DNA of 64,000 bases from an uncultured bacterium (GCA_963801165.1 CAWDDT010000004.1:128001-192000); one strand, 5' to 3'; positions 9,825 through 55,461 are shown, counted from the stretch's first letter. Made by a program: numbers and translations. Notes: a model not told the origin generated them from the sequence alone.

Positions 9825-9849
9825 GGAAGGATTGTTGGGGTGCTGATCT

Positions 9850-10554
9850 GTGAAGCAGAGCATTGACCTATTGTTCCTGACCGGGCAAGCGATCGACCGG
9901 CTGACCGACGCAATAGTTGACGTGACATTGACTGTCAGGGGAGCTGGTGGCACGATCGCCCAGGTACAGAAGCAGGCAGTAAGCTGAGAGCTATCAGCGA
10001 TCGTCGCTATCGGTGACCTTGACGATCCACCGACACCGGGCGATTTGCGGGTCTGGAGTACGGTAGGATTGTTCTTGGAAAGGTAATTGCTCAGATTCCA
10101 GACGGCCTTCGATAGGGCTAGCGCTGTGCTTAGATTTCGCAGTTTCGCTGTTGCGATTCTGTGCGGTGTTGTCCAAGCTGGGTTAGCGGTGTACTCCATC
10201 GAGCTCGGACCCGATAACGCGTATGGTCCTGGTGGCGCCTGGCTGATTCTGTCGGGGATGGTGTGTACGCTCGTCGCTGCGGAATGGGTAGTACTTGCCG
10301 TCGTCGGCGCTCTCATCTCCTATCGGTATCGATCCGGTCCAGCGTGGTTGCGGAACACCGCAGTAGCTGCGGCTTCGGTTCTATTGGCGTTGCCCGGGAT
10401 CAACGTTGCGGTAGCGTACGTTGAAGCGCCGCTCTGGGCTGTGTTGGCCGGGGCGATGTCATTTGCGATGTGGGCGTGGGCAACTCTCCGATCCGGGCGG
10501 CTGTCACATGACTTCACATTGCTTCCGAACAGGAGCGGCATCTCTACTCCATGA
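9850..10554 (+). pseudogene. Membrane protein; upstream part of the frame interrupted by stops
   Basis: 4-TM ORF 10087..10554; same frame continues upstream through TGA and TAA. Confidence 0.35.
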
Positions 10555-11315
10555 GTCTGCCACAAAATAGGAGGCTGGTTCCCCGATCGAAGTGAATTGT
10601 GCCGGCGGACGCTGTCGCAGCTCGCCCGACGGGGCTGGAGGCTTGTTCGCGATCCACGCTCGTGTTGCGGCAAAGCCCGCTAGCGCCTCCGCCGAGGAGA
10701 AGGATTTCTTCTCTGTCCTGGCTCGGTATCTCGGATGTGGTTTTGGGACTATTGACGTGATGACAGCAGCTGGACGGTTTCGCACGGATGCTCATCCCGG
10801 TAGCTAGTCTCCTCGATCGCCTCGATTGCAGCGACTGGTCGACCGTGACTGTGGCGCTCCTGAAGCGCGACACCAAACCGAGCCGCGTCGCGATCAGCCA
10901 GTGTTGGGGGCGGACACCGGCTAGGTCCCAAGAGGTAGAACAGGAGCGGCCACCCCATTGTGGGTCAACTCAGACTCCGTCGTCCGTTCTACACGGCGGC
11001 GACGTCGACGTTGAGTAGGGCGGTCAGGATGTTGTGGTGTTCCGGGGCGATTGGGACACCCAGGGCCACCGTTGACATCGGGATTCGGACGGCTACCACA
11101 GACGAAGTTGGACCGATTGGGCACAATCTCTCGGGCTCGACTGACTCCGGCTCGGTCGAAGTTGTTGGCCCGGGGATGGAGGCTATGTTGAGAGTGGAGC
11201 CAAGGTCGATGGATCGGGGTGGAACGGTTTTGGCGTGTCTCTGAGTGCGCCGGGTGTCCACGTGCGGCTTTCTGCTTCATGGGATGTTCGGGACCTCAGA
11301 TTCTGGAAGTGAGGT

Positions 11316-11528
11316 ATGGGTTCTATCGCCGGAGGGTTTGTGCTGCTCGCAGGTGCTATCGTGGCAAGGTTAGACCTCGCTCGTCTCGATAGGTGGGCGG
11401 CACGCCTGTCGCGAGATGGCGCCAGCGCTCAGAGAGCGAAGCGGTTTAATAGAGCCGCAATAGCCGTGCTCACGCTGATGGGGGTCGCTCTCATTGTTGC
11501 GGGGCTTGTGAGCACCGTGGCCAACTGA
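11316..11528 (+). CDS. Small 2-TM hypothetical protein
   Basis: GAGGT RBS; two hydrophobic helices. Confidence 0.5.
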   Translation: MGSIAGGFVLLAGAIVARLDLARLDRWAARLSRDGASAQRAKRFNRAAIAVLTLMGVALIVAGLVSTVAN

Positions 11529-11909
11529 CGGACCCGACCTCGAGCTGTGGAGTGATGAGAACCTGGCCGTCCTCACCGTCGCCTACCCGCCGACAACGAC
11601 GAGAGCATCGGACAGGGACGGGAGGCAGTGACGATACCATCTGGCCCAGACCGCTAGACAGCGTCCGCGGGCCCGCCCGCGACTGATCATCCGCGAGACC
11701 GTCCAAGATGCGGTTAGCAACGTACCCGCCAGCACCGGTTGTAGCTAGCCTCGCTGCGCCTGTCGCACAATCGACCGTCTGAATGTCGGCGCATGCTCCG
11801 ACCGTGAACGGTACCGAGGTCACAACGTTCACGGCCGTCGTGGCACCAGCAAGCAGCTTGGAGGTATCTTTGATCGGTCTAGTTAATCAATGATCCCCGA
11901 GGTTCTCGA

Positions 11910-12092
11910 ATGAGCTTCAGCCAAGCACTAGGTCTGTGTGTGTCCGTTGGCGGCATCGCCTTCGCCCTGATGCTGCGCTCGGACAAGAAAAAGGGGTACC
12001 GCGATTTGCTCAGGATGGAGCTTATGTGGCCGCTGATTCTCCTTGTTAGCAGCGGTTGCCTCGTATGGGAGCTATGGGCGTTGGCGCGATGA
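11910..12092 (+). CDS. Small 2-TM hypothetical protein
   Basis: GAGG RBS; two hydrophobic helices. Confidence 0.45.
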   Translation: MSFSQALGLCVSVGGIAFALMLRSDKKKGYRDLLRMELMWPLILLVSSGCLVWELWALAR

Positions 12093-12510
12093 CAGCTGAC
12101 AAGGCTCGCGGGTGAATCGCCCGCATCGTGACGCTAGCGCTGTTCGCCGAATTCCACAGACTGGCTGGCGGTGTCACCGGGGAATGGCCAACTTGGGCGG
12201 AGAGGAGATCCTCGACTGTGTCAGCGGCGGCACCTGTCTAGCACTATCAATGGATGAGACGGGCTGGGATCTCGCCGGAGGTGCATCTTTCGGCAAGACT
12301 GGCAATCTCTTGGGCCATCACACCGCGTGGACGCTCGGCTACGAGGAGGTAACGACGACTCTCTCAAGAGTTGCCAAACACCCCGCTCTAGGGCCTAAGT
12401 TGGCGCTTGAGACTTGCTTGGTACAAGCGTGGGCACGTGCCGAGATCGCCCTATTGGACGCATTGATGAACACGGCACAGAGTGTCACGGGCAACCGAGG
12501 ACCTTGAGCA

Positions 12511-13221
12511 GTGAGCAGTCGCATCGATACCCGACCTGGTGTGACAGTCCCCGCGCTCGGTTTCATTACGCTCGGCGTGGCCTTCTTGGCGGTCGCGACG
12601 ATCGCGAACGCAGCTCGCGGCGAGTATGGCCAGGCGATTGCGTTTGGGGTGATGACCTTGCTCGGAGGCGTCCTTTTTGTCGTTCCTCGTCGTGCATTTT
12701 CAATCCTCGTCTCTTCGGAGGGTGTGAGCCTGTGGCCCGATTCGTTGTCGAGGTACTTCAGGTCGAAGTGGCTGCCTTGGTCTGAGGTCATTGGGTACGA
12801 ACTCAAGGGCCGACGCTCCTCAGAAACACCCGTAGGCTCACAAATCGTGGCCAGGACGGTGCGGGGCGACACGGCTGTGGTGTGCCAGATACCGACCTGG
12901 TTGCTAGACAGTGCGAGGTGGTTCGGCCAGGCGGTGGAGCGTATGCTCCGCGTGCTCGAAGAAGAGCGGCACACCGGCCTCGAGACAGTGGGCAATCGTG
13001 CGGTGGCACTGCGTAGCAACGTTCTGTTTCGATGGGCAGAGCGCGGCGGTGAAAGAGGACCAAAACACCAAGATCCTGAGTATGGCCCTTGCCGTGGGAT
13101 CGTGGTGAACCCACTCGTGAGCGTGGTCACCGAACTCCGCGATGTTCAGCGGTTCGTTCCGTATCCCGCCGTTGAACGAATCGATCCGCAGGTTCTCCCT
13201 GGGGAGCCGAGTTCGATGTAG
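12511..13221 (+). CDS. 2-TM protein with a PH-like soluble domain; 3' end runs into an IS remnant
   Basis: 2 TM, then VSSEGV..LPWSEV pattern. Confidence 0.5.
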   Translation: MSSRIDTRPGVTVPALGFITLGVAFLAVATIANAARGEYGQAIAFGVMTLLGGVLFVVPRRAFSILVSSEGVSLWPDSLSRYFRSKWLPWSEVIGYELKGRRSSETPVGSQIVARTVRGDTAVVCQIPTWLLDSARWFGQAVERMLRVLEEERHTGLETVGNRAVALRSNVLFRWAERGGERGPKHQDPEYGPCRGIVVNPLVSVVTELRDVQRFVPYPAVERIDPQVLPGEPSSM

Positions 13222-13224
13222 AAG
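13129..13224 (-). mobile_element. IS3-family transposase remnant
   Basis: Minus strand FYIELGSP/ENLRIDSFNGGIRNEPLNIAEFG resembles the IS3 core YIEPGSPWEN..IESFNG.LRDELLN.EEF. Confidence 0.65.
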
Positions 13225-13447
13225 GTGCCGAGCCGTGTGAGGTCGCATTAGTCCGCCAGCGTGTTGACGATCATATTCGAGGCTTTGACGAGGCCAGGAA
13301 CGAGCGGAGACAGCTAAAGCGTCTTGGCCGAAACGACATCCCGGTCGCCCGCTGATATCGGCCGGCCAGGGCGAGGTGCGTCCACGTTACATAGTGATTG
13401 TGCCGGCGGACGTGGGCTTGACCGCGGACCTATTCTCTTGGTTTGGA

Positions 13448-13908
13448 AGGTCGGTGAAGGTACGTCAATGATGGAGTTCGACAGGCGCGGACTAGTGCGG
13501 ATGATCGCAATCGGATTGGGTTTGACAACGGTCTGCGCGTGGGTGGCGGCCGCGGGCGTTACGACGAGCGTGTGGCCGTTTACGAGTTCAACCGTAATGA
13601 GAGCGCTTGGCGCCGTAGGTGCGTCCGCTTCACTAGCTCAGACAGTGCCCTTCCTGGGCATGCTGGCACGCCGACACAACCCGGCCATCGAGGGCAACAA
13701 CTCCTTCGTGACGATCCGAGCGGTTTCCGGGAAATCGCGTGTCATCGAATGGACAGATATCGAACGCGTCGAGTTGAGGCGCAACGCAGTCGACCTTCGA
13801 CTTCGGTCAGGCGGACGCGTCCGCGCATATGGCCAGGTCATTGCTGCGCGACACAAGAAGGCGATGGCAGAGGTTGCCGAGTTCTTCGCGAAGAGGGTTG
13901 CTCATTGA
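13448..13908 (+). CDS. 2-TM protein with a PH-like domain
   Basis: GAAGG RBS; 2 TM, then IEWTDIERVEL. Confidence 0.55.
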
Positions 13909-14010
13909 GCCGCTACCGGGGGTCAAATGGGGGACGAGGCGAGAATTTGACCCTGGGCGCTTGCGCCGCCCACGGTTCCAACGATCCGAAGGACGATATA
14001 GCTGGTGCGT

Positions 14011-43368: not shown

Positions 43369-43800
43369 ATGCAGAAGACCGTCGGGCAGTTGCTCGAAGC
43401 AAAGGGAGCCGAGGTATGGACGATCGGCCCGGATGCCACCGTCCTCGAGGCTCTCAACTTGCTCGCAGAGAAGAATGTCGGTGCGGTCGTCGTCGTCGCA
43501 GACGGTAAGGTGAGCGGGATACTTTCGGAGCGTGACTACGCCCGCAAGGTCAGGCTCCTGCATCGTGATTCCGGGGATACGGCCGTCTCCGAGATCATGA
43601 CCTCAGAGGTGAGAACGATCACCCGCGACAAGGATGTCGTGGACTGCATGGAGATGATGACCGAGTTTCATATCCGCCATCTTCCCGTAGTCGAGGGCGA
43701 CACCCTGGTCGGGCTCATCTCGGTGGGCGACGTGGTCAAAGCGGTGATCGCCGAGCAGGCGTTCCTGATCGATCAGCTGCACCAGTACATCACCGGGTAG
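43369..43800 (+). CDS. CBS domain protein
   Basis: GILSERDY, IRHLPV, ISVGDVVK. Confidence 0.92.
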   Translation: MQKTVGQLLEAKGAEVWTIGPDATVLEALNLLAEKNVGAVVVVADGKVSGILSERDYARKVRLLHRDSGDTAVSEIMTSEVRTITRDKDVVDCMEMMTEFHIRHLPVVEGDTLVGLISVGDVVKAVIAEQAFLIDQLHQYITG

Positions 43801-43845
43801 CTACATCACCGGTAGCTACATCACCGGGTAGCTACATCACCGGTA
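43786..43845. repeat. Four-unit 15/16-bp tandem repeat
   Basis: TACATCACCGG(G)TAGC x4. Confidence 0.9.
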
Positions 43846-44271: not shown

Positions 44272-44366
44272 GGAGGTGTCAGGATGCCTGGTGGGTCCCG
44301 CGGTCTTCAAAACCGTTGAGGGGGCGAAAGTCCCCTGGCGGGTTCGATTCCCGTCCGCCTCCGCCA
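44272..44366 (+). tRNA. selC: tRNA-Sec (UCA)
   Basis: 95 nt; anticodon loop CTTCAAA, TGGT D-loop, long variable arm AGGGGGC-GAAA-GTCCCCT, TTCGATT T-loop, G-CCA end. Confidence 0.95.
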
Positions 44367-44373
44367 GAGCCCG

Positions 44374-45594
44374 TCAAATAAGGGTATTCCGGGTGCTGCC
44401 GTCGAGTTCGACGACGGCCCCGGAGCCCTTCGGGGCGCGCTCGGGGCGCGATAGGGGCGCGGGAGAATCACTCGAGCCTCGTTGGGGGCGTGTCTGGGGC
44501 GGTGTGGTGGCGGCGATGTAGCGGCGGTCGAGCGCGTCGGAGAGGGCGTCGAGGTCGTCTGTCGTAGAGGTGTCCGTATAGGTCGAGTGTCATTGCTGCT
44601 GAGGCATGGCCGAGCTGGCGTTGTACTGCTTTGATGTTGGCTCCGGTGGAGATCATCAGCGAGGCTGCGGTGCCTCGCAGGTCGTGGATGCGGAGTTGCT
44701 CGAGGTCTGCTGCTTCGATGGCTGGTTTCCAGACGGTTTGGCGGAACGGGGAGGAGCGGAGCGGCCCTCCTTTTGGTGCGGTGAAGACGAGCCCGTCGTC
44801 GGTGATGGTGCCGAGGTGGGCGGCGAGACGGTCGGCGAGGAACGCGGGCATGGTGACGAGACGCCGTTCGTGGGTTTTGGGTGTTCCCCATGACAGACCG
44901 GAGCCGAGTTCGGTTGCGGATTCGGCGATCTCGATGCGACGCCGCAGCAGGTGGACACGAGGTCGTCTCAGCGCGACGAGTTCGCCCCATCGCATCCCGA
45001 CCCACGCCAGGGTCTCGATGATGAGCCCGGTTCCGGTTTGAGCGTTCTCGGCGGCTGCGGCGAGGACTGTGACTTGTTCGGCGGTGAGGAACCGCTGCTC
45101 GCGTCGCCGCACCGTCGGGACCTTCACCCCGGACGTCGGGTCGCGGGCCAGGATCCCGTCGTTGACGGCCAGCTGGAGCGGGCTGATAGGACTTGTTTGG
45201 CTTGTTTGATCCGTGACGCGGAGAGCCCCTCGGTGGTCATGTCGGCGATCCATTCCCGCACCATGGCCGGCGAGATGCGGTTGACTGGCAGATCCCCGAA
45301 TGCGGGTAGTACGCGTGAGCGGAGCAGCGATTCGTATCCGGCGCGGGTTTTGGGTTTGATGTCGAGTCCGGCGAGCCAGGCGGCGGCGGCTTCGGCGAGT
45401 GGGATGTCTCCGGCTTCGGGGGCGATCCAGTCGCCACGGTCGATTGACCCGAGTCTGGCAACCAGCCAGCGGTCGGCGTCGACTTTCCGGTCGAAGCTCC
45501 TTGAGCGGATGCGTCCGTCGGGGCCTCGATATCGGGCTCGCCACCTTTTCCCGGTGCGTCCTTGCCGGTCTTCGATCCATCCGGAGCGTCTCAT
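44374..45594 (-). CDS. Tyrosine integrase with two frameshifts (~45180, ~44560)
   Basis: WRARYR.PDG arm domain; GMRWGE, HDLR, LGH, TLDLYGH; corrected tail DDLDALSDALD..NTLI*. Confidence 0.9.
44432..44461. repeat. Candidate integrase arm-type sites
   Basis: GGGGCGCG x3 at 11-bp period; x2 at 54994-55012. Confidence 0.6.
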
Positions 45595-45917
45595 GCGGTT
45601 CTCCCTCCCTACGTCTCGATGCGGCATCTACTCGTATCCATACACGGAATCCGGTGTGGCGGGCTGTCAACCCCATTGCCGGCCACAACTCTGAGACGGC
45701 AGAAGGCGAGTTCACATCTCTCATCATTGCTCATCATCTCTCATTAGTTATCAATATTTATACGCTATCAATGTTGTATAAGGGTTATGATAGTCGAAGG
45801 AACGGACACCCGCACCGGGAATCTGATCATGACTCCAGCTACCAACCTGCAGCGACCCCACAGAGTCTTTGAGGACAGACGGGTGCACACCTGCGGTGAC
45901 AGGGTGGGGGTGGCACG

Positions 45918-48675
45918 GTGACGGTGCGGGTGACGACGTTGAAAGGCACCGAGGCTGGTCGCTATTACACCGAGCAGCTCCCGTCGTACTACCTCGACAG
46001 CGGTGAGCCGCCGGGTCGCTGGTTCGGACACGGCGCCGCCGAGCTGGGTCTTGATGGTGTGGTCGACGATGAGGCGTTCTTGGCGGTGATGGCCGGATTG
46101 CATCCGACGACAGGGGAGCGGCTGGGTCGCCGCTTCGGCGACGGTTCGGTGCGGGGGTTCGATGCGACGTTTTCGGCGCCGAAGTCGGTGTCGGTTCTGT
46201 TCGCCGTAGGCGACGAACAATTGCGCCGCGCAGGTGACCGAGGCGCATGACCGGGCGGTCGACGCGGTGCTCGACTGGGTCGAGTCGCAGGCGCATACGA
46301 GGTTGCGGTGGCGGGGTCATGTGGTGTGTGTCGATGCCGAAGGGATCGTGGTCGGGGTGTTTCGTCAGCACACGAGCCGCCGACTCGACCCGCAGTTGCA
46401 TACCCATGCGGTGATCGCCAACCGAGTCAGGGCTCCGGACGGGCGTTGGTTGGCGCTCGATGCCCGCACGTTGAAGATGGATCAGCGGACCTTGTCGGGG
46501 TTGTATCACGCCGGGTTGCGGGCCGAGCTGACCCGCCGCCTCGGAGTCCAATGGCACCAACCCGAAAATGGGATTGCCGAGATGGTCGGTGTCGACCCGG
46601 AGGTGCTGGCCGAGTTCTCCCAACGCAGCCGCGACATCGAGCAGCGGGTCGGTGAGAAGCTGGACCGGTTCCGCACCGACCTCGGGCGGGAACCGACACC
46701 ACGGGAACGGTGGCGTCTGGAACGCGAGGCCGTGTTGGACAGCCGCCCCGCCAAGACCACGGTCACGCTGCCGGCGAGTTGCATGCCGGGTGGCGCAGCA
46801 GGTTGCGAGCCGGCTCGGTTTCGAACCACGACGACATCGCCGTCGGCACGGTGGGTCGGGTCCGCCGGGCGACCGGCATCGACCAGGCGACAATGGCCGG
46901 AATGATCGATGGGGCGTTGGAGGCGTTGGGGGAGCGGCAGTCGACATGGCGTCCCGCCGAACTGGTCCGTGAGCTCGCCGCCCAGGTCCCCACCAATGTC
47001 ACCGTCGAACCGGATCGTCTGTGCGGTTTCCTGCAGGACCTCGCCAACCACGTCGCGGCAGACCGCTGTGTCGACCTGTCCCCACCAGTCCCGTCTGGTG
47101 CCGTGTTGCGCCGTGACGGGCGCCCGATCAGCGAAGCCGCCGTCGACCGGGCCCTCACCACCCAGGCGATCCTCGAGGAGGAGGAACGGATCGTGGAATG
47201 GGCTGAGCGGCAGCGCCGTTTCGCCGACATCATCGACACCACACCCCGGGGCCTCGACACGCAGGGTTTGAGTGCGGGTCAGGCCGAAGCGTGTCGGGCA
47301 GCAGCCGGTGGCGCACCGTTGGAGCTGATCGTCGGACCCGCCGGATCGGGCAAGACCACCGCCCTCACACCCGCCGTCGCCTACCTACAAGACCGCGGCC
47401 AGACGGTGTTCGGGGTGGCACCCACCGCAGCAGCCGCCGAGGTGCTCGCCACCGAAACCACCATGGCGGCCGACACGCTCGACAAGCTCCTCTACGAACA
47501 CTCCCGGCCCGACCGGCCACCACAACCGGCATACGACTGCCGCGGGGGTCGACGGTGATCGTCGATGAAGCCGGCACCGTGTCCACCCCGAAACTCGCCG
47601 CCCTCACCCGTCTCGCCGACGACAAGGCGTGGCGGGTGGTGATGGTGGGTGATCCCCGCCAGTTCTCCGCCGTCGGTCGGGGCGGCATGTTCGCCCACCT
47701 CATCGACACCTACGGCGCCATCGAACTCGACCACATCCACCGCTTCACCCACCAATGGGAAGCCGACGCCACCCGGCGTCTCCGCCAAGGCGACATCGGC
47801 GTGCTCGGCGAGTATCAGCGTCACGGTCGCCTCCACGACGGCACCCCCGACGCGATGGAGACAGCGATCGTCGAGGCCTGGAGTCAGGCGCGGCGGCGGG
47901 GCGAGTCGGTGGCGTTGATGGCCAACACCAACCACACCGTCAACCGTCTCAACCAGCTCGCGCAACAAAGACGCATCGGCACCGGTGAGCTCGACCCGAA
48001 CGGGCCCGGCCTCGACGCTCGGCCGGCGAGCGGCTGCTCGTCGGCGACGAGGTGGTTACCCGCCGCAACCAGCGCACCCTGCGCACCGACCACGGTGTCA
48101 TGGTGAAGAACCGGGACCACTGGACCATCGAAGCCATCCACCCCGACGGCGCCGTCACCGTCACCGGACGGGCGGGCAGGGTGCGTCTCCCCGCCGACTA
48201 CGCCGCCGAGGATCTCGAACTCGGCTATGCCCAGACCAGCCACGCCACCCAAGGCCGCACCGTCGACACCGGTCTCCTCCTCGTCGACGGCCCCATCGAC
48301 GGCCGCGGCCTCTACACGCCGCTGACCCGCGGCCGAAGCTCCAACCACGCCTACGTCGTCACCAGCGAAAACGAAACGGCAGCCGACGTCCTCACCCAAG
48401 CGATCGCCCGGGACTGGATCGACCAACCCGCCATCACCCAACGAACACGCCTCGAAGCCGGCAAGGCGTTGAACCCCACGCTCGGACACAGCCAGCTCGG
48501 AGACGATCAGCAAGAAGCAACGCACCCACCCGATCACGACGTCGGCAAGCCAGATCTCAGCTCCGACGACCACCAAACCTGGCAGACAAATCAACCGGAG
48601 CATCGAAGCCGCCAAGCAACGCCAGCGCCGCTGAGCGCAGCCCGCAGCCGACACACCCCCGGCATCGGCCGCTGA
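45918..48675 (+). CDS. MobF (TrwC) relaxase-helicase split over five ORFs
   Basis: YY..YY, FDATFSAPKSVS, HTSR..DPQLHTH, GPAGSGKTT, VDEAG, GDPRQ, GYAQTSHATQG.TVD. Confidence 0.9.
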
Positions 48676-48835
48676 CCACAACCACGGCCACGGAACGTGA
48701 CGAACCAATAACTGGTCTAGATCACCGGCATATTGCCGGATCGAGGGCGGTTGTGGGTGCTCGATAACGCGGCGTGGCTGGTGTCGTTATGGGCGGGTGG
48801 TAGCCATCCATGCCTACTAGTGGTAGTATTCCGGT

Positions 48836-49060
48836 ATGAAGCTCAGTGTCAGTCTTCCGGACGAGGATGTTCAGTTCCTCGATCAGTACGCTCAAACCCA
48901 AGGATACGAGTCCCGGTCCGCTGTGGTGCACAAGGCCGTCCGGCTACTTCGTGCATCCGAACTGGGAGGCGACTACGCCGACGCTTGGCAGGAATGGTCA
49001 GATTCGGGTAATGCCGAGGTCTGGGACGCTGCTATAGGCGACGCGTTGGTTGGCAACTAA
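48836..49060 (+). CDS. RHH antitoxin (MazE-like)
   Basis: MKLSVSL..D..SRSAV..AV.LLR..L..YA.AW.EW; coupled to the toxin. Confidence 0.9.
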   Translation: MKLSVSLPDEDVQFLDQYAQTQGYESRSAVVHKAVRLLRASELGGDYADAWQEWSDSGNAEVWDAAIGDALVGN

Positions 49061-49407
49061 TGCTGCGCGGTGAAATCCGGATGGTTGATCTCGATCCGGC
49101 ACGACAGGGTGAAGCAAACAAACGACGCCCGGCGGTTCTTGTTTCCAATGACGGTGCCAATACCACCGCCGCCAGGCTGGGACGCGGTGTGGTGACTGTG
49201 GTTCCGGTTAGTTCCAACGTCACCCGGGTTTATCCCTTTCAGGTGCTGCTTGCTGGAAACGAAACGGGTCTCGATCGTGACTCGAAAGCCCAGGCTGAAC
49301 AGGTCCGGTCCGTTTCTGTCGATAGGGTTTCCCACAAGGTCGGTACGGTGCCGCCGGACATCATGCTTGCAGTCGATGACGCTTTGCGTCTCCACCTCGC
49401 GCTCTGA
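49060..49407 (+). CDS. mazF: MazF/PemK toxin
   Basis: RGEI..VDLDP..G.E..KRRPAV.VSND, DSKAQAEQVRS. Confidence 0.95.
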   Translation: MLRGEIRMVDLDPARQGEANKRRPAVLVSNDGANTTAARLGRGVVTVVPVSSNVTRVYPFQVLLAGNETGLDRDSKAQAEQVRSVSVDRVSHKVGTVPPDIMLAVDDALRLHLAL

Positions 49408-49633
49408 CGATCGGTGCTACCTGACTTGACGCCTACGACTACGCGTTGGCTGCCGAGAGTCAACGCCACTGGATGCCATCTCAGATCACCAAATCCCGGA
49501 CGATGAGACGCACATCACCGAACCACGCATACCGGCGCCTCTCTCCGCTCGGCATGGCGGCCACGCAGGGTTGTACCAAGCGGTCGGCGGGTGTCTTCCA
49601 TCACCTCAAACTTTCGTATTACGATATTGAGAT

Positions 49634-49897
49634 GTGGAAATCTACCGCACAGCCCACAAACACGGCATCAGCGACGCCGATATCCGGCACGCCGTCGACA
49701 ACGCCATCACCGTTGTTGACCTCGAACCCGACGTGGACCCTCCCAAGGTCCTGGCCATCGGACCGGACCGTGCCGGGAACCTGTTGGAGGTCATCTGGCT
49801 CGAACTCGCCAATGACGCTCAGCTGGCGATTCACGCCATGCCGCTTCGACCCACTTTCTACGACTTGCTCCCGTTCCCCGGGGAGGACATACCATGA
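49634..49897 (+). CDS. Putative toxin (BrnT/RelE-like)
   Basis: A.KHGI..DI.HA, IGPDRAGNLLEV, IHAMPLR. Confidence 0.8.
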   Translation: MEIYRTAHKHGISDADIRHAVDNAITVVDLEPDVDPPKVLAIGPDRAGNLLEVIWLELANDAQLAIHAMPLRPTFYDLLPFPGEDIP

Positions 49898-50175
49898 GTG
49901 ACAACAAGACACGCCGCACCGCCACTGGCCGCAGCCTCACCGAAGAGGAACTGGACCACATCGCCGCCGAAGTCGAAGAGACCGCATACGATGTTGGGGT
50001 ACTCAAGACTCGTCGCCGCGGCCGCCCCCCGATGGGGTCGGGACCGGCAGATGTGGTCCCTGTTCGCATCGACCCGGAACTGAAGGCAGCGATCGAGGCT
50101 CGAGCCCAAGCAGACCACACATCCACCAGCGAGATCATCCGCGAAGCAATCCGCCGTTTCCTCGACGTGGCCTGA
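49894..50175 (+). CDS. CopG/RHH antitoxin
   Basis: RGRP..G..VVPVR..EL..SEIIREAIRRFL; ATGA overlap. Confidence 0.85.
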   Translation: MSDNKTRRTATGRSLTEEELDHIAAEVEETAYDVGVLKTRRRGRPPMGSGPADVVPVRIDPELKAAIEARAQADHTSTSEIIREAIRRFLDVA

Positions 50176-50445
50176 CCTAGACCAGAGCAGACCAACAATT
50201 CTGTCGCAAGAACGATCACTTCCCCGAGTGCGCCCGATCGGCACTTCCAAGATCGGGGCCGGGACAGGGAGGCTGCCACGCAGCGTGGTGCCCGCTTGAC
50301 CCGATCTTCCGTTCCATTGCTACTCAACCCCAGGCAATGGCGCCACGTCATACCGATCACGCAACGCAACCGTTGGATGACATAACTGGCCATGACGCGG
50401 CACCGGATTGGTCAGCTCCGCTAGCGTCCAGCGAACGCAGAAAGG

Positions 50446-51273
50446 TTGCGGATGAAGTGTCCAAGCGGGGATTCCGAGGAGCCTCGTGACGATGAGGAGC
50501 TGGCGCGTGTCCTGCTGGGCGAACATCTCTCAGGCGAGTTAGTTCGTGTCGATCCCCCTCTACCCGATTTCGTCATCTGTCGCGATGGTGTGATCGAAGG
50601 CGGCGTCGAGGTGACACGCGCAACTGACGAAGATTCAGAGCGACTCAGGGGGCTACTTCGCAAAGACGGTCCCTCGTTTGAGTCCGATCGCTTGGAACAG
50701 AACTGGATCGTGATGTTCAACAAGGGCGCTGACCTGCGCAAACTCAACCGGGATCGTCTCGTCGATGCCCTCGTGCTGATGGAGCTCGACGCGACCGAGC
50801 GAGCACTTGCCGCAACGAACCGCCAGATCCAGCAGCGACACGCTCTTGAAGCTATCCGTCACGAAACGCAAATCAAGGGCGTGCTTGGCACTCTTGGCGT
50901 CGACCACGCCATACCGTGGAACCACAACAAGCCCGCCGGAACGGTGCACCTATCTGAGGGCGGGTGGACGTGGGCGTGGGAGCATCCAAACCTGATCAAT
51001 GACCTCGCGGAGGAAGTGATAGAGCGGAAGAAAGAAAAAGGCCTCCGGAGCATCAGTGGAGAAAGCCACCTGTTTGTGTGGGTAGACCCTTGGGAGCCGA
51101 CCGGCGCTGGCATTTTAATGAGCGGACAAGCCGAGCTTCCGGAAGAACCACCGAAGATCCCGGATTGGGTCACCGATGTTTGGATGGTAAGCACGTTCGG
51201 CCCTGCCCGCCTGTGGCACTGCTCAAGAGGTGGATCGTGGCATCTCCGAACCTCCGGGCAACCCGACCCCTAG
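50446..51273 (+). CDS. Hypothetical protein with PD-(D/E)XK-like motif
   Basis: LPDF..GVEVT; start uncertain. Confidence 0.6.
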   Translation: MRMKCPSGDSEEPRDDEELARVLLGEHLSGELVRVDPPLPDFVICRDGVIEGGVEVTRATDEDSERLRGLLRKDGPSFESDRLEQNWIVMFNKGADLRKLNRDRLVDALVLMELDATERALAATNRQIQQRHALEAIRHETQIKGVLGTLGVDHAIPWNHNKPAGTVHLSEGGWTWAWEHPNLINDLAEEVIERKKEKGLRSISGESHLFVWVDPWEPTGAGILMSGQAELPEEPPKIPDWVTDVWMVSTFGPARLWHCSRGGSWHLRTSGQPDP

Positions 51274-51480
51274 AAACCCCCACATCCCGTGAACACTCCC
51301 GTCCTAGAACACCAAATCGGGCGTGATAACCATCACATTGCCCACCCACTCGATATCGGCACCTCCACGGGCGGGCTCCGGAACACTCGTGGTGGCAACG
51401 GCCATCCGATAAGCGCATCGATCAAGGGAGCACTACTCGCCTATCCTGAGTCGAGAGAATCCAGACGGGAGGCGACCGCC

Positions 51481-51810
51481 ATGGCGAAAAGGATCATTGT
51501 CGCTACTTGCCTAGCTTGGGCGTTTCTGGGTTTTGCGATCGCTATGGTCGCCCTCCCGGAAGTCAACGCCGATGCAAAGCTCCTTGTCGGATCGATGTCT
51601 GTGCTTCTCCCCGCTGCGGCGGTGGGGGCAGCCTGGGCCGCCAATCGTTCGAAGGTCTGGCTCACCGTCGTCCTGCTTCTCATATCGGTCGGGACGCCAA
51701 CATACATGCTGTATGTCGCCAACCTAATTCCGGTGATTCTGGCGGCTGTCCTCGCCCGGAGAGGGCGGGTTCTATTGGATTCGGTCCAGTCGAATTCGGT
51801 CACGGTCTGA
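51481..51810 (+). CDS. Small multi-TM protein
   Basis: GGAGG RBS; mostly hydrophobic. Confidence 0.65.
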   Translation: MAKRIIVATCLAWAFLGFAIAMVALPEVNADAKLLVGSMSVLLPAAAVGAAWAANRSKVWLTVVLLLISVGTPTYMLYVANLIPVILAAVLARRGRVLLDSVQSNSVTV

Positions 51811-51989
51811 GGTGTTCTAGGTCGCTCGACCCTCAGAGGTATTCGAATCGGGGCCACCTCAGGTCTTTGGCCGCCCCCGACCAGCATTATCCGAGCAATA
51901 ACGCAGATTTCGCCGACCGTCCCCGAACGGCACCTCCGCGAGCGGGGTGTCGACCACCGGTGGTGACGCGGTCGATTGTGGTGCTGCTG

Positions 51990-52377
51990 CTATTGCGAGG
52001 CTTGGCTGTATGAGAACTCGCCGGTGATTCGTTGTCCTTCGACTGTTCGTTCTAGGCAGGTCCCCGTCCAGCCGGCTGGGAGTTCGACCGCGGTGAGGAC
52101 GTCGCATGAGGGTCGCGTACATCCGGTGGGTGTCCTCGGCCCGTAGTCGCACATAGATGATCGCTCCTTCGGAACTCGGGATCGCATACAGCTGATCACC
52201 TACTTCAGCAGCGATCAGTGCTTCCAACTCAGGAGTCGGGATATCGGCGTCGGTGATTTCGGTGGCATTGGCCATCAGTGTGGCGGTCGTCGCCTCGGTT
52301 GGGTCGGTGCCGGTCCCGGTCGCCGTGCAACCCATCAGCGATGCGGCAAAGATGACAGACGCTTTACGAAACCACAC
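51990..52377 (-). CDS. Small lipoprotein, frameshifted near 52110
   Basis: Lipobox LMGC; C-terminus continues in ORF 51990..52199. Confidence 0.55.
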
Positions 52378-52531
52378 GGCATCACCTCTTCAGCCAACGA
52401 TACATCAGGTCTCGATTACCCCCATAACAAAAAATACTGTGCGGCGGCGCTAGCCACCCCCGAAGCGCTGCCGCGTCGGGATGACCTTCCCAGCACTGAC
52501 CGCCCAGGATTGCCGAAGATGCGCGTTCTCT

Positions 52532-52945
52532 ATGATCCAGTCTGTGATCGAACCATTTCCCGAGGACCATGAACTCGTCTCGTTTTTCGAGACCCTTCCG
52601 ACATACCCTGAACGATCCACTTCCGACGACTACGAGATCCCTACGGCGTACCTCAAACAGGTTTACTCATCGAGCGCAGGGTCGTCTGCGGTGACCTTTT
52701 CCGTGGAACGAGCATCGGGTCTGGTAGATCTGGACGTCACTTCAGCCGACGGAATGAGCGTGAGGGTCGTTCTCCACTGGGTAGCGGCGATCTCGATCGA
52801 GGAGCACCCGCGCCTAGGAAAGACGCTGGTAGCGAAGCCAAGCCAGCCTGAACTCCGAGATCTCCGGCTGAGGCTCGGTCCGGAGCCCTCCATCAGTTGG
52901 GGAACAGAGATGTATCCGGATCGGCCCGCTGACCCCATCGTGTAG
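52532..52945 (+). CDS. Hypothetical protein (immunity-like?)
   Basis: Clean 137-aa ORF FPEDHELVSFFE..LRLRLGPEPSISWGT. Confidence 0.55.
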   Translation: MIQSVIEPFPEDHELVSFFETLPTYPERSTSDDYEIPTAYLKQVYSSSAGSSAVTFSVERASGLVDLDVTSADGMSVRVVLHWVAAISIEEHPRLGKTLVAKPSQPELRDLRLRLGPEPSISWGTEMYPDRPADPIV

Positions 52946-53411
52946 GTGCCGCGAGGAACGGTGCCTTCGTTGTGGCGCCGCCAAACCACCCCCGAAGCGC
53001 TGTGACACTCCGAGAACCTTCCCGGGCAATATCGCCAATTCTGCTGCAGTAACGATCAGTTTCGCCGACCGCCCGGGATCGTCACTGATGCGGGCATGGC
53101 TCGAACACGCACCGTGACAGGGTGCCTGCGCGTTTTCCCTGGATCGAAATCGGGTCACCCGCCTATTCCCGATCTCGTGGGCGGGTTGGGGGTCGACACG
53201 TCGGGGCGGTTGGCGGCATTCTCGAAGGCGGCGGTGTGCTCGGAGCTATGAGTAACCGAAGGGTCGGCATGTGCGGTGAAAGCCGGTGACGCCGGAAGGC
53301 TCGAAAGGACTGGGCGTGACATTCCCTCCTTGTCTTCTCCGGGTTGGCTGTCTTTTGTTCTCCATGGCCGCGCGCGTCGGGTGTTGCCGAGAGAGTGGGG
53401 CACAATAGGTT

Positions 53412-54092
53412 GTGATGGTTGTCAAGAAGGGCAATGTGAGTCTCGATTCCGACTCCTCCGACAAGGGGGAGCGTTTCGGCGGTCGCCTGTTACCCGTCTT
53501 TGTTGTCGTTCTGGCGGTGTTGGCCGCGGTGACCGTTTGGATTGCAGGTGTTGATGCCGGACCGTTCACAGCAGCAGACTCGACTCCATCGACGCCGGCT
53601 ACCCAGGTTTCCACGACTCAGGCTCCCTCGACTGGAACCTCGGTTGGTCCTTCAACATCGACAACGGTTGGCCCGGTCCGGGTGGTCACCGCACCAACAG
53701 GACCGGCTGCGGGATCAAACTCGCCGACGTGCGAGAACGCAGCCGAGCAGGCCGCGGTCGGGTTCTTCGCCGCAATGGCAAACGGGGATGCAGCCGAAGC
53801 CGAAACATTCTTCGCAACCGACGATTTCGACGGATACACAGAGGTTCCGCACAGGACAGACGACGCCGCCCGCGACCGCAACAGCCTCTTGGAGTACTTC
53901 CAGACTCGCGCAGCTACGGGCGCTGAGTTCCATCTGGTGAGTCGAACCTTCTACGGTGGGACAGATGACCGCCAGGCCAACTTCGGCGTTGACGTGCGCA
54001 ACGAGGACGGCGACAGCATCTCAGGCCAAGGCACTGTCAACTGTCAGACAGGCAAGATCATCGCCCTATTCCTCGTCCCGCTCATCGACTAG
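53412..54092 (+). CDS. Membrane-anchored protein with S/T/P linker and NTF2/SnoaL-like domain
   Basis: TM, ST-rich linker, FFAAMANGD..A..FF. Confidence 0.6.
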   Translation: MMVVKKGNVSLDSDSSDKGERFGGRLLPVFVVVLAVLAAVTVWIAGVDAGPFTAADSTPSTPATQVSTTQAPSTGTSVGPSTSTTVGPVRVVTAPTGPAAGSNSPTCENAAEQAAVGFFAAMANGDAAEAETFFATDDFDGYTEVPHRTDDAARDRNSLLEYFQTRAATGAEFHLVSRTFYGGTDDRQANFGVDVRNEDGDSISGQGTVNCQTGKIIALFLVPLID

Positions 54093-54331
54093 CGGCCAAT
54101 CTCAGGCAGGTGCGCGTCGGCATCCAGCGTGGCGACCGGCAGGCATCTAGCCCGACTGACGCATGCCGTACCATCAGAAGCTGGCCGCCCCAGATCAGCA
54201 TTATCCGAGCAAGAACGCTCCGTTTCCCGACCGCCCGGGAACGGCACGTCGGGGTGCGGGTCAGTGGCCACTCGCAGTGTCTGCTGAATGACGGGCGAGG
54301 CGGTCGAACTCCTCAGGCATGGACGGAACTC

Positions 54332-54360
54332 TTGAGACGTATCACGATACGTGATACGGT
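54332..54360 (+). promoter_or_regulatory. TA promoter with palindromic operator
   Basis: TTGAGA-17-TACGGT enclosing CGTATCACG-ATA-CGTGATACG; ATG follows 6 nt later. Confidence 0.7.
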
Positions 54361-54366
54361 CGTTGT

Positions 54367-54606
54367 ATGGCACAAGCAATCTCAGTCCGCCTTGACGATC
54401 GGGCGCTCCGTGCGCTTGGCCAACTCGAGGCAACCGGCATGACCCGCTCCGAAGCGATCCGTGCCGCTCTCGTCGAGGCAGCGTCTCGACTCCATGACAA
54501 GGCTGCCGTCGCTGCAGAAGTCGCCGCTCTCGAAGCCGACGACGACGATCGCGCCGAGATGCTGGCAGTTGCCGATCTGATGGAGAGCCTTCGTGCAGCG
54601 GGGTGA
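54367..54606 (+). CDS. RHH antitoxin
   Basis: AISVRLDD..RSEAIRAAL..DRAEM.AV..MESLR. Confidence 0.88.
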   Translation: MAQAISVRLDDRALRALGQLEATGMTRSEAIRAALVEAASRLHDKAAVAAEVAALEADDDDRAEMLAVADLMESLRAAG

Positions 54607-54910
54607 CATCTTCGCCCTGCGACTCCCCAAAGGGGTGGGGCACGAACAGAAGGGACGTCGCTTCGGTGTGGTCGTCCAGTCTGACGCGTTTCTGCCGCGG
54701 TCGGTGGTGCTGGTGGCACCGACATCGACCAGTGCCAAACCCGCTTCGTTCCGACCCGAAATCGAAATCGATGGAACCGCGACTCGGGTGCTTGTAGAGC
54801 AGGTTGGTGCTGTCGATGTGCAGCGCCTCGGTGATCTGGCCGGCCACCTCAGCCCGGAAGAACTATGGGGTGTCGATGCCGCTTTGCTCACCGTCCTCGG
54901 TCTCAACTGA
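54593..54910 (+). CDS. mazF: MazF/PemK toxin
   Basis: RGDI..GHEQ.GRR..VVVQSD..VAPTSTSA..EQ..AVD..RL. Confidence 0.92.
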   Translation: MQRGDIFALRLPKGVGHEQKGRRFGVVVQSDAFLPRSVVLVAPTSTSAKPASFRPEIEIDGTATRVLVEQVGAVDVQRLGDLAGHLSPEELWGVDAALLTVLGLN

Positions 54911-55139
54911 GCGCACCGATCACACCAATTCACGAGCAACAACGCACACTTCGCCGGGTGATCGGGATCGCGGTGAGCAGTCTTCCGCATCTCGGGGCGC
55001 GCTGGGGGCGCGGGAGAACGAAAAACGATGCAAACCACTGGGAGATGACCAAAGATGATGAGTAGTCAAAAACCATTGTGCTATAATGGTTTTCGGCAGA
55101 ATCCCCAGCGTGTCGCTGACTTCCGAGAAACGCCCCGAA

Positions 55140-55205
55140 CGGTCTTCAAAACCGTTGAGGGGGCGAAAGTCCCCTGGCGGGTTCGATTCCCGTCCGCCTC
55201 CGCCA
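55140..55205 (+). repeat. attR: duplicated 3' part of tRNA-Sec
   Basis: Identical to 44301-44366. Confidence 0.95.
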
Positions 55206-55237
55206 CGAGGAGCCCCGTCGGTTGGCGGGGCTCCTCG
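55206..55237 (+). terminator. Hairpin after attR
   Basis: CGAGGAGCCCCG/CGGGGCTCCTCG. Confidence 0.65.
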
Positions 55238-55378
55238 CCCCGTCAAATAAGGGTATTCCGGGCGCTGCCGTCGAGTTCGACGACGGCCCCGGAGCCCTTC
55301 GGGGCGCGCTCGGGGCGCGATAGGGCCGCGGAAGAATCAGTCGAGCATCGTTCGGGGCGTGTCGGCAGCGGTGTGGTA
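55238..55378 (-). pseudogene. 3' remnant of a sister integrase
   Basis: Near-identical to ~44369-44508; encodes ..LSRPERAPKGSGAVVELDGSARNTLI*. Confidence 0.75.
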
Positions 55379-55461
55379 CGCCAGCGCCGGCGTCGCACCG
55401 CCGGTATACGCTCCGTGACGACGACCGAAGTTCGCAGCGCACACCAAAGGAAGGACCAAGA

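What the first reader, a model, noticed from the sequence alone, without database searches (positions are those of the whole stretch)
48836..54970. Candidate non-integron gene-cassette array: island cargo modules separated by co-oriented dif-like repeats
Seen: each cargo module is followed by a copy of one degenerate repeat, all in the same orientation. Cores written as 7+11+6+11 nt: CCAAATC CCGGACGATGA GACGCA CATCACCGAAC (49489, weak); ACAATTC TGTCGCAAGAA CGATCA CTTCCCCGAGT (50195); CCAAATC GGGCGTGATAA CCATCA CATTGCCCACC (51312); GCATTAT CCGAGCAATAA CGCAGA TTTCGCCGACC (51884); CCAATTC TGCTGCAGTAA CGATCA GTTTCGCCGAC (53035); GCATTAT CCGAGCAAGAA CGCTCC GTTTCCCGACC (54198); CCAATTC ACGAGCAACAA CGCACA CTTCGCCGGGT (54925). 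Five copies continue into AwCGkCAC, and most of these into GCGGG..CAC (~80 bp). Between them lie mazEF, a BrnT-like TA, a PD-(D/E)XK-like gene, a membrane protein, a lipoprotein plus hypothetical, an anchored protein and a second mazEF. Established: XerCD dif sites are 11-6-11 with ATAA-N6-TTAT, and pdif modules and integron arrays are TA-rich. The reverse complement of the 51891-51918 core (GGTCGGCGAAA TCTGCG TTATTGCTCGG) resembles the XerC arm GGTGCGCATAA. Inference: this is a site-specific cassette-capture system on a mobilizable element. Unlike integrons it has no intI or attC hairpins, and unlike typical pdif modules the sites are direct rather than alternating.
Basis: partly seen in the sequence, partly recalled or inferred. 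Interest (0 to 1): 0.85.

Follow-up and report, generated by a model that had tools for sequence, protein, structure and literature searches.

The report
Non-integron gene-cassette arrays in Acidimicrobiia
The repeats are real recombination sites that let small gene modules, mostly toxin-antitoxin pairs, be swapped between genomes of an uncultured actinobacterial order, much as integrons do but with unrelated sites and an enzyme not yet identified.

Summary
All seven repeats exist. They belong to a ~100-nt family with a near-invariant hexamer, CGGCAC. My profile finds 41 copies in this genome against 0 in a reversed decoy, and the family occurs in 36 of 41 related genomes (uncultured Acidimicrobiia), usually in co-oriented arrays. 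The window array is the cargo end of a 10.8-kb island in tRNA-Sec that carries an integrase and a TrwC-type relaxase gene, apparently frameshifted.

Single modules recur at 97% identity in other genomes and in metagenome contigs, next to different neighbours. Homology breaks at the hexamer: 22 of 67 surveyed ends fall within -7..+3 nt of it. In five informative cases a variant hexamer stays with the upstream partner, which puts the junction at its 3' edge.

The host dif (found at the GC-skew peak) does not resemble the repeat, and no hairpin is supported.

An IS110-family element and a 2.5-kb element with two Xer-like tyrosine recombinases are inserted at the same hexamer.

Verdict: site-specific cassette exchange is well supported. 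The XerCD/dif reading is not supported, and the recombinase is unidentified; a tyrosine recombinase making a single strand exchange is the most likely candidate.

The parts
44272..44362 (+). tRNA-Sec (selC). Its 3' 66 nt (44297-44362) form the left copy of the island's direct repeat (attL core).
   Evidence: ARAGORN; Rfam RF01852, 72.7 bits; alignment with the right copy
44468..45727 (-). Island tyrosine integrase, 419 aa
   Evidence: Pfam Phage_integrase, 70.7 bits. Paralogues lie next to other arrays.
45918..48675 (+). TrwC-type (MOBF-like) relaxase-helicase gene read here in five overlapping frames: an apparent pseudogene, or assembly frameshifts
   Evidence: Pfam TrwC and AAA_30 on successive pieces. 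An intact 915-aa copy lies at G000:C5:593925-596672.
48725..48740 (+). First junction site between backbone and cargo: CCGGCAT|ATTGCCGG, a near-palindrome whose left part resembles the repeat's left arm plus hexamer
   Evidence: Homology with G014 (L030) starts at 48732. An X1 contig diverges after 48739. Alignment of sister islands.
48732..49538 (+). Cassette 1: RHH antitoxin (48836-49060) and MazF toxin (49060-49407). Ends with repeat 5' half and hexamer CGGCGC (49533-49538).
   Evidence: Pfam; repeat hit at 49472-49596; with cassette 2, shared at 97% with G014:C24
49539..50244 (+). Cassette 2: DUF4258/BrnT-like protein (49634-49897, sub-threshold) and RHH protein (49894-50175). Hexamer at 50239-50244.
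   Evidence: Pfam. Junctions: L030 diverges after 50244-50247; X5 contig diverges after 50244; X1 and X6 contigs join another 5' half at 49541.
50245..51362 (+). Cassette 3: 275-aa protein of unknown function (50446-51273). Hexamer at 51357-51362.
   Evidence: A 5,540-nt contig of run X3 matches only 50239-51362 and has different flanks
51363..51933 (+). Cassette 4: small membrane-protein ORF (within 51289-51810). Hexamer at 51928-51933.
   Evidence: ORF list; no Pfam hit; repeat hit at 51867-52006
51934..53085 (+). Cassette 5: lipoprotein-like ORF on the minus strand (52377 down to 51859; as called it runs into the repeat, so a frameshift or read-through is likely) and a 154-aa ORF (52481-52945). 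Hexamer variant CGTCAC at 53080-53085.
   Evidence: The lipobox was read by eye from the sequence and is an inference.
53086..54247 (+). Cassette 6: 226-aa protein with an N-terminal hydrophobic segment (53412-54092). Hexamer at 54242-54247.
   Evidence: Shared at 97.0% over 1,169 nt with G014:C8 (L031 4418-5586), with different neighbours on both sides
54248..54974 (+). Cassette 7: RHH antitoxin (54367-54606) and MazF toxin (54593-54910). Ends with a half site (5' half, degenerate hexamer CGCGGT at 54969-54974) joined to the island's right arm.
   Evidence: Pfam; profile hit covers model positions 9-75 only
54991..55018 (+). GGGGCGCG-rich motif also found just inside attL (44430-44465) and after attR. 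Possible arm-type integrase sites (inference).
   Evidence: the repeat finder families D6 and D7; alignment
55095..55198 (+). Second tRNA-Sec-like sequence. Its last 66 nt (55133-55198) are identical to 44297-44362 (attR core). It is followed by about 110 nt similar to the start of the island, probably the remnant of an older island.
   Evidence: Rfam, 51.2 bits; alignment

Best explanation
The repeats are ~100-bp site-specific recombination sites. Each has a ~56-nt 5' half, the hexamer CGGCAC, and a ~40-nt 3' half. Together they delimit mobile gene cassettes. A cassette runs from just after one hexamer to the end of the next, so an excised circle would carry one complete site. The window array (seven cassettes, three of them toxin-antitoxin pairs) is the cargo end of an integrative mobilizable island in tRNA-Sec. 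The same site family forms arrays at about 16 places in this genome and across the order. What is shown: the sites exist and are non-random, cassettes are shared between genomes in different contexts, and the junction lies at the 3' edge of the hexamer. What is inferred: the catalyst is a tyrosine recombinase that exchanges only the strand cut next to the hexamer, and the resulting Holliday junction is resolved by replication, as in integron attC x attI and CTX-phage/XerC reactions. That would explain why the variable sequence 3' of the hexamer need not match between partners. The enzyme itself is not identified. Candidates are the island integrases, or Xer-like recombinases such as the pair carried on a 2.5-kb element that sits at the same hexamer.
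For: The family is real: 41 sites against 0 in the decoy, and it occurs in 36 of 41 genomes of the order panel. Cassettes are shared in different contexts. Window 53080-54247 matches G014:C8 at 97.0%, and window 48732-50247 matches G014:C24 at 97.2%. A metagenome contig of run X3 holds only 50239-51362. Contigs of X1, X5 and X6 switch partner at 49541 or 50244, and no run holds more than 19% of the array's sampled words. In the junction survey, 22 of 67 homology ends that lie within +-100 nt of a hexamer fall within -7..+3; about 3.7 would be expected if they were spread evenly. Hexamer variants stay with the upstream partner in 5 of 5 informative comparisons. The backbone (integrase plus relaxase) is 89-94% identical in four other genomes and in a second copy in this genome, and that homology stops at the end of the relaxase gene or within about 65 nt after it, so the cargo differs. 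For a tyrosine recombinase: a two-recombinase element has its ends joined at exactly this point at three left junctions (own C6, G014 and another MAG, L051) and three right junctions (own C6, G014 and a partial copy at own C10:1-662). Its circle junction would read inverted 14-nt arms flanking CCTCAC. 10 of 16 repeat clusters in this genome lie within 12 kb of an island integrase or relaxase gene. The genome has 20 tyrosine-recombinase hits, one distant serine resolvase and no Y1/RAYT gene.
Against: No recombinase tracks the repeat family. The two-recombinase element was found in only 6 of 41 genomes, all in one genus. The island integrase family was found in 28 of 41, and genomes G017 and G022 hold six integrase matches each but no repeat at E<=0.001. 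The arms flanking the hexamer are only moderately conserved, which is unusual for protein-binding arms. No excised circle or empty site was observed: the runs were available only as contigs. Many junction events are not independent, because related genomes share ancestry. All genomes are metagenome-assembled, so chimeric assembly at repeats could mimic some context changes. However, the same junctions recur in separate assemblies from four studies.
Confidence: 0.45

Rival explanations
1. The sites are oriT-like nick sites. A TrwC-type relaxase (HUH enzyme) nicks after CGGCAC, and initiation at one site with termination at the next releases a single-stranded cassette circle. Relaxase-catalysed strand transfer into another site inserts it. 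Cassette shuffling would then be coupled to conjugative mobilization.
For: The junction is one fixed position, with the conserved sequence mostly 5' of it (56 nt plus the hexamer). In distant genomes, matches often cover only the 5' half, the hexamer and about 15 nt more. This is the asymmetry expected for a relaxase nick site. In 5 of 6 relaxase-linked clusters the array lies downstream of the relaxase gene on the same strand. This genome has about nine relaxase loci, at least three of them full-length at 83% identity or more. A conserved block with an inverted repeat (CGATAACG..CGTTAT) follows 4 of 6 relaxase genes aligned, and CGATAAC also occurs in the repeat's 5' half. That TrwC recombines oriT copies is recalled from the literature and was not checked here.
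Against: The relaxase family was found in only 19 of 41 genomes, against 36 of 41 with repeats. G006 and G007 (92-95% complete) have 23-24 repeats and no relaxase match, while G017 and G022 have relaxases and no repeats. Some arrays lie in islands or chromosomal spots without a relaxase. No hairpin 5' of the junction is supported. The element that uses the same junction point encodes tyrosine recombinases, not an HUH enzyme.
Confidence: 0.17
2. One reading: the sites are dif-like and are recombined by the host XerC/XerD, as in pdif modules or Xer-exploiting integrative elements.
For: XerC- and XerD-like genes are present and would be shared by the whole order, which fits the wide spread of the repeat. 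With a 1-nt shift, the consensus left arm AGTGCGCGAGA|TC resembles the dif XerC arm AGTGCCCATAA|TC at 7 of 11 positions (my own alignment of the consensus with the dif). Single-strand exchange by XerC on degenerate sites is known for CTX phage (recalled).
Against: There is no ATAA-N6-TTAT. The best mean identity to the host dif is 11.3 of 28, and the XerD-arm side has no similarity. About half of the copies have a different left arm, of the ACCAC or ACCGC type. The sites are direct repeats, not alternating.
Confidence: 0.08
3. The repeat is a REP-like or regulatory intergenic element with a cellular role. The modular pattern would then come from homologous or microhomology recombination between copies, from common descent with deletions, or from assembly artefacts, and not from a dedicated site-specific system.
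For: The family is order-wide and also occurs as single copies and outside islands, for example between housekeeping genes on C7. IS110-family elements typically target such conserved repeats (search listings). Many homology ends (45 of 67) lie away from the hexamer.
Against: The breakpoints peak sharply at a 6-nt motif that is too short for RecA-dependent exchange, and hexamer variants segregate consistently with one side. There is no terminator or promoter signal in the repeats: 0 of 7 terminator-like hits coincide with them. There is no conserved structure, no Rfam match and no RAYT gene. The orientation of the repeat relative to the genes varies between arrays, which argues against a transcript-level role.
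Confidence: 0.12

Closest known systems
Integrons (IntI, attI, attC cassette arrays; chromosomal 'super-integrons' and integrase-less attC clusters)
   Same: Co-oriented arrays of short, mostly single-gene or toxin-antitoxin cassettes. Each cassette carries one site. The junction sits at a fixed point next to a short invariant core, and the sequence on the other side need not match. Cassettes are shared between genomes in different orders. IS110/IS1111-type elements parasitize the sites (the IS1111-attC group appears in the papers listed; details are recalled).
   Different: There is no integron integrase: the best NCBIfam integron-integrase score is 71 bits against a cut-off of 265. No folded attC is supported, and there are no R''/R' boxes. 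The site is split near its middle, with about 62 nt at the cassette's end and about 40 nt at its start. There are many arrays per genome, mostly in the cargo ends of tRNA-integrated mobilizable islands. The host is in Actinomycetota.
pdif (Xer) modules of Acinetobacter plasmids and Xer-exploiting integrative elements (IMEX)
   Same: Modules bounded by short recombination sites with no dedicated integrase next to them. IMEX arrays have direct repeats and use a single strand exchange (recalled).
   Different: The sites do not resemble the host dif. They are direct, not alternating. They occur at many loci and not at dif or on plasmids.
oriT-specific recombination by conjugative relaxases (TrwC of R388; recalled)
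   Same: One defined junction nucleotide, recognition mostly 5' of it, and arrays downstream of TrwC-family genes.
   Different: No cassette arrays built this way have been described, to my knowledge. The relaxase does not co-occur with the repeat family.
Strand-biased circularizing integrative elements (SE-6283, SE-6945) and Tn554-type elements with two tyrosine recombinases
   Same: This comparison applies only to the 2.5-kb element at the hexamer: two tyrosine recombinase genes, imperfect terminal inverted repeats, and a 6-bp crossover region carried along with the element. The SE features come from passages of PMC9345347 read.
   Different: Here there are only two genes, both Xer-like (378 and 435 aa), without the two extra SE core genes, and the target is the repeat hexamer. 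Tn554 features are recalled only.
REP/BIME elements with RAYT transposases; MITEs
   Same: An abundant intergenic repeat family that IS110-type elements target.
   Different: No palindromic hairpin, no RAYT gene, and no terminal inverted repeats or target duplications. The copies delimit exchangeable gene modules.
Tycheposons and other tRNA-island systems with cargo modules
   Same: Tyrosine-integrase islands at tRNA genes with variable cargo.
   Different: There the modules are separated by partial tRNA repeats (recalled; only the search listing was seen). Here the separators are an unrelated ~100-nt site.

Membership tests
Integron | IntI-type integrase next to the array | tested here: not met
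   The island integrase and the two Xer-like recombinases score 26-71 bits on the NCBIfam integron-integrase models, whose cut-offs are 265 and 435.
Integron | attC sites that fold as imperfect hairpins with R''/L''-L'/R' boxes | tested here: not met
   RNAalifold on 21 copies predicted 0 pairs. Native and swapped half-sites fold equally well, -8.81 against -8.95 kcal/mol. Circle-junction pairing is only marginally better, p=0.019 in one of three windows.
Integron | Co-oriented cassette arrays with exchange at a conserved core | tested here: met
pdif / Xer module | Sites similar to the host dif (11-6-11, ATAA-N6-TTAT) | tested here: not met
   Host dif located. Best mean identity is 11.3 of 28, and the motif is absent.
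pdif / Xer module | Alternating site orientation around modules | tested here: not met
   All copies within a cluster share one strand.
pdif / Xer module | Recombination by XerC/XerD | not testable with these tools
   Needs biochemistry or genetics.
Integrative mobilizable element (the island that holds the array) | Tyrosine integrase next to a tRNA gene, direct repeats of the tRNA 3' part at both ends, and a relaxase gene | tested here: met
   The relaxase is read in five frames here, and an intact copy exists elsewhere in the genome.
REP/RAYT system | RAYT (Y1 transposase) gene and palindromic REP units | tested here: not met
   PF01797 not found in this genome, which is 98% complete. No conserved hairpin.
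IS110 family (element inserted in the hexamer) | DEDD transposase with a Transposase_20 domain and site-specific insertion | tested here: met
   Pfam, 84 and 69 bits. NCBIfam NF033542, 171 bits against a cut-off of 140. Three left junctions are inserted at CG|(G)GCAC, and the right junction was checked in two of them.
Relaxase oriT / nick site | Nicking by the cognate relaxase at the junction | not testable with these tools
   Only indirect: position and strand relative to relaxase genes, and no co-occurrence.

The most novel reading that the evidence does not exclude
The arrays are built by conjugative relaxases. Each ~100-nt site would be a pseudo-oriT that is nicked after CGGCAC, so any stretch between two sites can leave as a single-stranded circle and be pasted into another site. 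This would be a cassette-capture system run by an HUH enzyme and coupled to conjugation, independent of integrons and unknown so far.
Probability: 0.15. Interest if true: 0.92.

Novelty: new variant of a known kind. Interest (0 to 1): 0.8.

Why it matters
Integrons are the textbook case of gene capture by site-specific recombination. From recall, and from the paper listings only, they are not known as native chromosomal elements of Actinomycetota. This system appears to be a functional analogue, built from unrelated sites, that spans a whole order of abundant soil and sediment Acidimicrobiia. If confirmed, it would give a second, independent route to cassette-based genome plasticity. It would explain how toxin-antitoxin and small accessory genes spread in these uncultured bacteria. 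It would offer a short, portable recombination site with a defined junction, and it would make a clear question testable: which recombinase acts at CGGCAC. It also shows three kinds of mobile DNA converging on one 6-nt target: cassettes, an RNA-guided IS110-family element, and a two-recombinase element.

Tried and rejected
- **Hairpin or attC-like structure.** RNAalifold predicted no pairs. Constrained folding of native against swapped halves showed no difference. Cassette-own (circle) junctions were only marginally better. Rejected as unsupported.
- **RNA family.** Rfam at E<=1 on 43-57 kb returned only the two tRNA-Sec matches.
- **Terminator or promoter role.** No signal coincides with the repeats, and counts are not above the shuffles.
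- **Relation to the island att sites.** The profile does not hit the attL or attR flanks.
- **dif similarity.** Weak at every offset.
- **Catalyst by co-occurrence.** The two-recombinase element (6 of 41), the relaxase (19 of 41) and the island integrase (28 of 41) do not track the repeat (36 of 41). None is excluded, because the genomes are incomplete metagenome bins.
- **RAYT and serine recombinases.** No RAYT gene, and one distant resolvase.
- **Replication-strand bias.** 11 clusters are co-oriented with the G-rich strand and 4 are opposed, which is not significant.
- **Left-edge crossover.** I considered a crossover at the left edge of the hexamer at the array's right end (54969). The contig ends there scatter over 54957-54989, so I dropped it.
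- **Unknown cassette proteins.** PADLOC gave no hits for 8 proteins. The ESM Atlas gave no usable lead for a 587-aa cassette protein, with a best score of 0.77.
- **Sequencing runs.** All were held as contigs. Parts of the array without cover in a run are not evidence of absence, and no excision joints could be sought.
- **Literature.** Six searches found no description of this repeat or system. Supplementary files were not consulted.

Full report
**Observation**

The seven repeats are present at the stated coordinates and in one orientation. A profile built from those seven alone finds 27 sites at E<=0.01 in the 4.55-Mb genome that holds the window (20 of them new) and none in a reversed decoy. 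After one iteration the figures are 41 and 0. The unit is about 100 nt. An ungapped alignment of 60 distinct copies, anchored on the most conserved part, shows three sections:
- a ~56-nt 5' half: aGAtCA.CAAaTc..G.GCgA.AACGc.CA.tTCgCCGAgtGc.CgaGAt
- a near-invariant hexamer: CGGCAC
- a weaker 3' half: .TC.gCG.gCGGgg....Ga.cac.c...GTgg

**Setting**

The organism is an uncultured member of the Acidimicrobiia, judging from the record titles of the integrase relatives. The window holds tRNA-Sec at 44272-44362 and a second tRNA-Sec-like match at 55095-55198. Their last 66 nt are identical and bound a 10.8-kb island. From left to right the island holds:
- a tyrosine integrase (44468-45727, minus strand)
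- a TrwC-type relaxase-helicase gene read in five frames (45918-48675), which is either a pseudogene or the result of assembly frameshifts; an intact 915-aa copy lies on contig C5
- the array (48732-54974)

The cassettes hold two MazEF pairs, a sub-threshold BrnT/DUF4258-like protein with an RHH partner, and five small proteins with no family match above threshold.

**Distribution**

In this genome the copies form about 16 clusters, each on one strand. Ten of the 16 lie within 12 kb of an integrase or relaxase of the island families. In 5 of 6 relaxase-linked clusters the array lies downstream of the relaxase gene and on its strand.

Genes inside the arrays can lie on either strand relative to the repeat. 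They are rich in toxin-antitoxin families: 14 of 20 further cassette proteins scanned carry such domains (MazF, ParE, Phd, PIN, Doc, RHH), two of them below the Pfam cut-off.

A sequence-only covariance model of 43 copies finds the family in 36 of 41 genomes of the relatives panel, which spans 12 families of the order, with up to 72 copies in one genome. Five genomes (96-100% complete) have none at E<=0.001. Among 62 loci fetched through integrase relatives, 12 hold the repeat. All 12 are Acidimicrobiia-type metagenome genomes; none is from Gordonia, Rhodococcus, Amnibacterium or the other named genera.

**Cassette behaviour**

The island backbone is 89-94% identical in four other genomes and in a second copy in this genome. 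That homology stops at the end of the relaxase gene or within about 65 nt after it (window 48676 to 48741), and the cargo differs.

Single cassettes recur elsewhere:
- Window 53080-54247 is 97.0% identical to G014:C8, where both neighbours differ.
- Window 48732-50247 is 97.2% identical to G014:C24, with a different right neighbour.
- In G014:C8 the 226-aa cassette is followed by an element that in this genome lies on another contig.

Public metagenome assemblies give independent support. No run holds more than 19% of the array's sampled words. In contigs from four studies:
- One 5,540-nt contig (run X3) matches only 50239-51362 and continues on both sides into other sequence.
- Contigs of X1 and X6 join a different 5' half (ending ...GATCGGCAC) to window 49541.
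- A contig of X5 diverges right after 50244.

**Junction**

I ran an all-against-all comparison of the arrays of this genome and about 90 fetched loci. It gave 67 homology ends within +-100 nt of a hexamer, and 22 of them fall within -7..+3 of its last base. Shared upstream cassettes end at 0..+3 (10 events). Shared downstream cassettes begin at -7..-2 (12 events). These events are not all independent.

Where the hexamer itself varies between two sites that share the downstream cassette, the variant always goes with the upstream partner. The pairs are CGTCAC/CGGCAC, CGGTAC/CGGCAC, CGGCAC/AGGCAC/CTGCAC, CGGCAT/CGGCAC and CGGCAC/AGGCAC, which is 5 of 5 informative comparisons.

The junction is therefore at the 3' edge of the hexamer.

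The backbone-cargo boundary is a related near-palindrome, CCGGCAT|ATTGCCGG (48725-48740), and a breakpoint falls at the bar.

**Other elements at the same hexamer**

- An IS110-family element is inserted at CG|(G)GCAC in three places; the right junction was checked in two of them. Its transposase scores 84 and 69 bits on the two Pfam domains and 171 bits on NCBIfam NF033542, whose cut-off is 140.
- A 2.5-kb element carries two overlapping Xer-like tyrosine recombinase genes (378 and 435 aa). Both are intact in G014; the first is frameshifted in this genome. Its left junction was seen at three sites (own C6, G014 and another MAG, L051) and its right junction at three (own C6, G014 and a partial copy at own C10:1-662). 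Its ends are inverted repeats (ATATGKGGGTAATCG), and it carries its own hexamer, CCTCAC, at its right end. A circle junction would therefore read arm-CCTCAC-arm, the classic layout of a tyrosine-recombinase core. Its junctions with the target lie at the same 3' edge of the hexamer.

**What it is not**

- It is not a folded attC.
- It is not an Rfam family.
- It is not a terminator.
- It is not like the host dif, which I located at the GC-skew maximum of contig C6 (AGTGCCCATAA-TCCACG-TTATGTATAGT).
- The genome has no RAYT gene and only one distant serine resolvase. It has 20 tyrosine-recombinase matches and several relaxase genes.

**Mechanism**

Site-specific exchange at the hexamer is well supported; I put it at about 0.8. 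The enzyme is not identified. I favour a tyrosine recombinase that exchanges only the strand cut next to the hexamer, with the junction resolved by replication. The replicative resolution of integron insertions is the subject of PMC3458562, of which I saw only the search listing. The reasons are these:
- The sequence 3' of the hexamer differs between partners.
- The hexamer stays with one side.
- An element that encodes only tyrosine recombinases uses the same point.

A relaxase nicking model fits the single junction and the 5'-weighted conservation, but it fits the co-occurrence data poorly: the relaxase is found in 19 of 41 genomes and the repeats in 36 of 41. No candidate tracks the repeat family.

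**Limits**

- All genomes are metagenome bins, and some are very fragmented.
- My gene calls come from a simple codon-usage score.
- The tallies include two unpublished genomes (G027, G038).
- Statements about TrwC, CTX phage, pdif modules, IS1111-attC and Tn554 are recalled. Only PMC9345347 was read, in passages. Other papers were seen as search listings.

Noticed in passing
G000 contig C6, about 196,545-196,572 (outside the window): Probable chromosomal dif site, AGTGCCCATAA-TCCACG-TTATGTATAGT, at the maximum of cumulative GC skew on that contig. It marks the replication terminus.
   Followed up: yes
window 43790-43845: Three to four tandem copies of a ~15-nt unit (GGTAGCTACATCACC) a few hundred bases upstream of tRNA-Sec.
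   Followed up: no
window 55205-55400: After the right end of the island, the sequence again resembles the first ~190 nt of the island, including the 3' end of an integrase gene. This is probably the remnant of an older, related island at selC.
   Followed up: partly
window 48732-48800, and downstream of relaxase genes at G000 C5:596.7k, C9:440.2k and C13:169.1k: A conserved ~70-nt block, TGCCGG(A/T)T...GCTCGATAACG-N16-CGTTATGGGCGG, with an inverted repeat. It follows 4 of 6 relaxase genes aligned, even where the proteins are only about 35% identical. It could be an oriT or a regulatory site.
   Followed up: partly
G000 C5:599448-600797, C6:650746-652095, C10:23916-25265: Three copies of a 449-aa Mutator/IS256-type transposase gene with equal ORF length and coding score, each within a few kb of a repeat array. 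Pfam was run on the C5 copy only (406 bits).
   Followed up: partly
window 9000-14000: A stretch of lower G+C (0.60 against 0.65) with strong positive GC skew. It may be another acquired region.
   Followed up: no
L003 5109-6872 (G000 C5:288108-289871); 80%-identical partial copy at C6:28797-29792; unrelated 587-aa ORF at L001 7031-8794: Large cassette-borne proteins. For the two 587-aa ORFs there is no Pfam or PADLOC match, and the C5 one has no ESM Atlas lead. The C5 one is a single-gene cassette between two repeats.
   Followed up: partly
Sister islands in G005, G012, G014 and G000 C5: The integrase genes of several sister islands match in two pieces with in-frame stops, whereas the window copy is intact. 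The window's relaxase is the broken gene instead.
   Followed up: no
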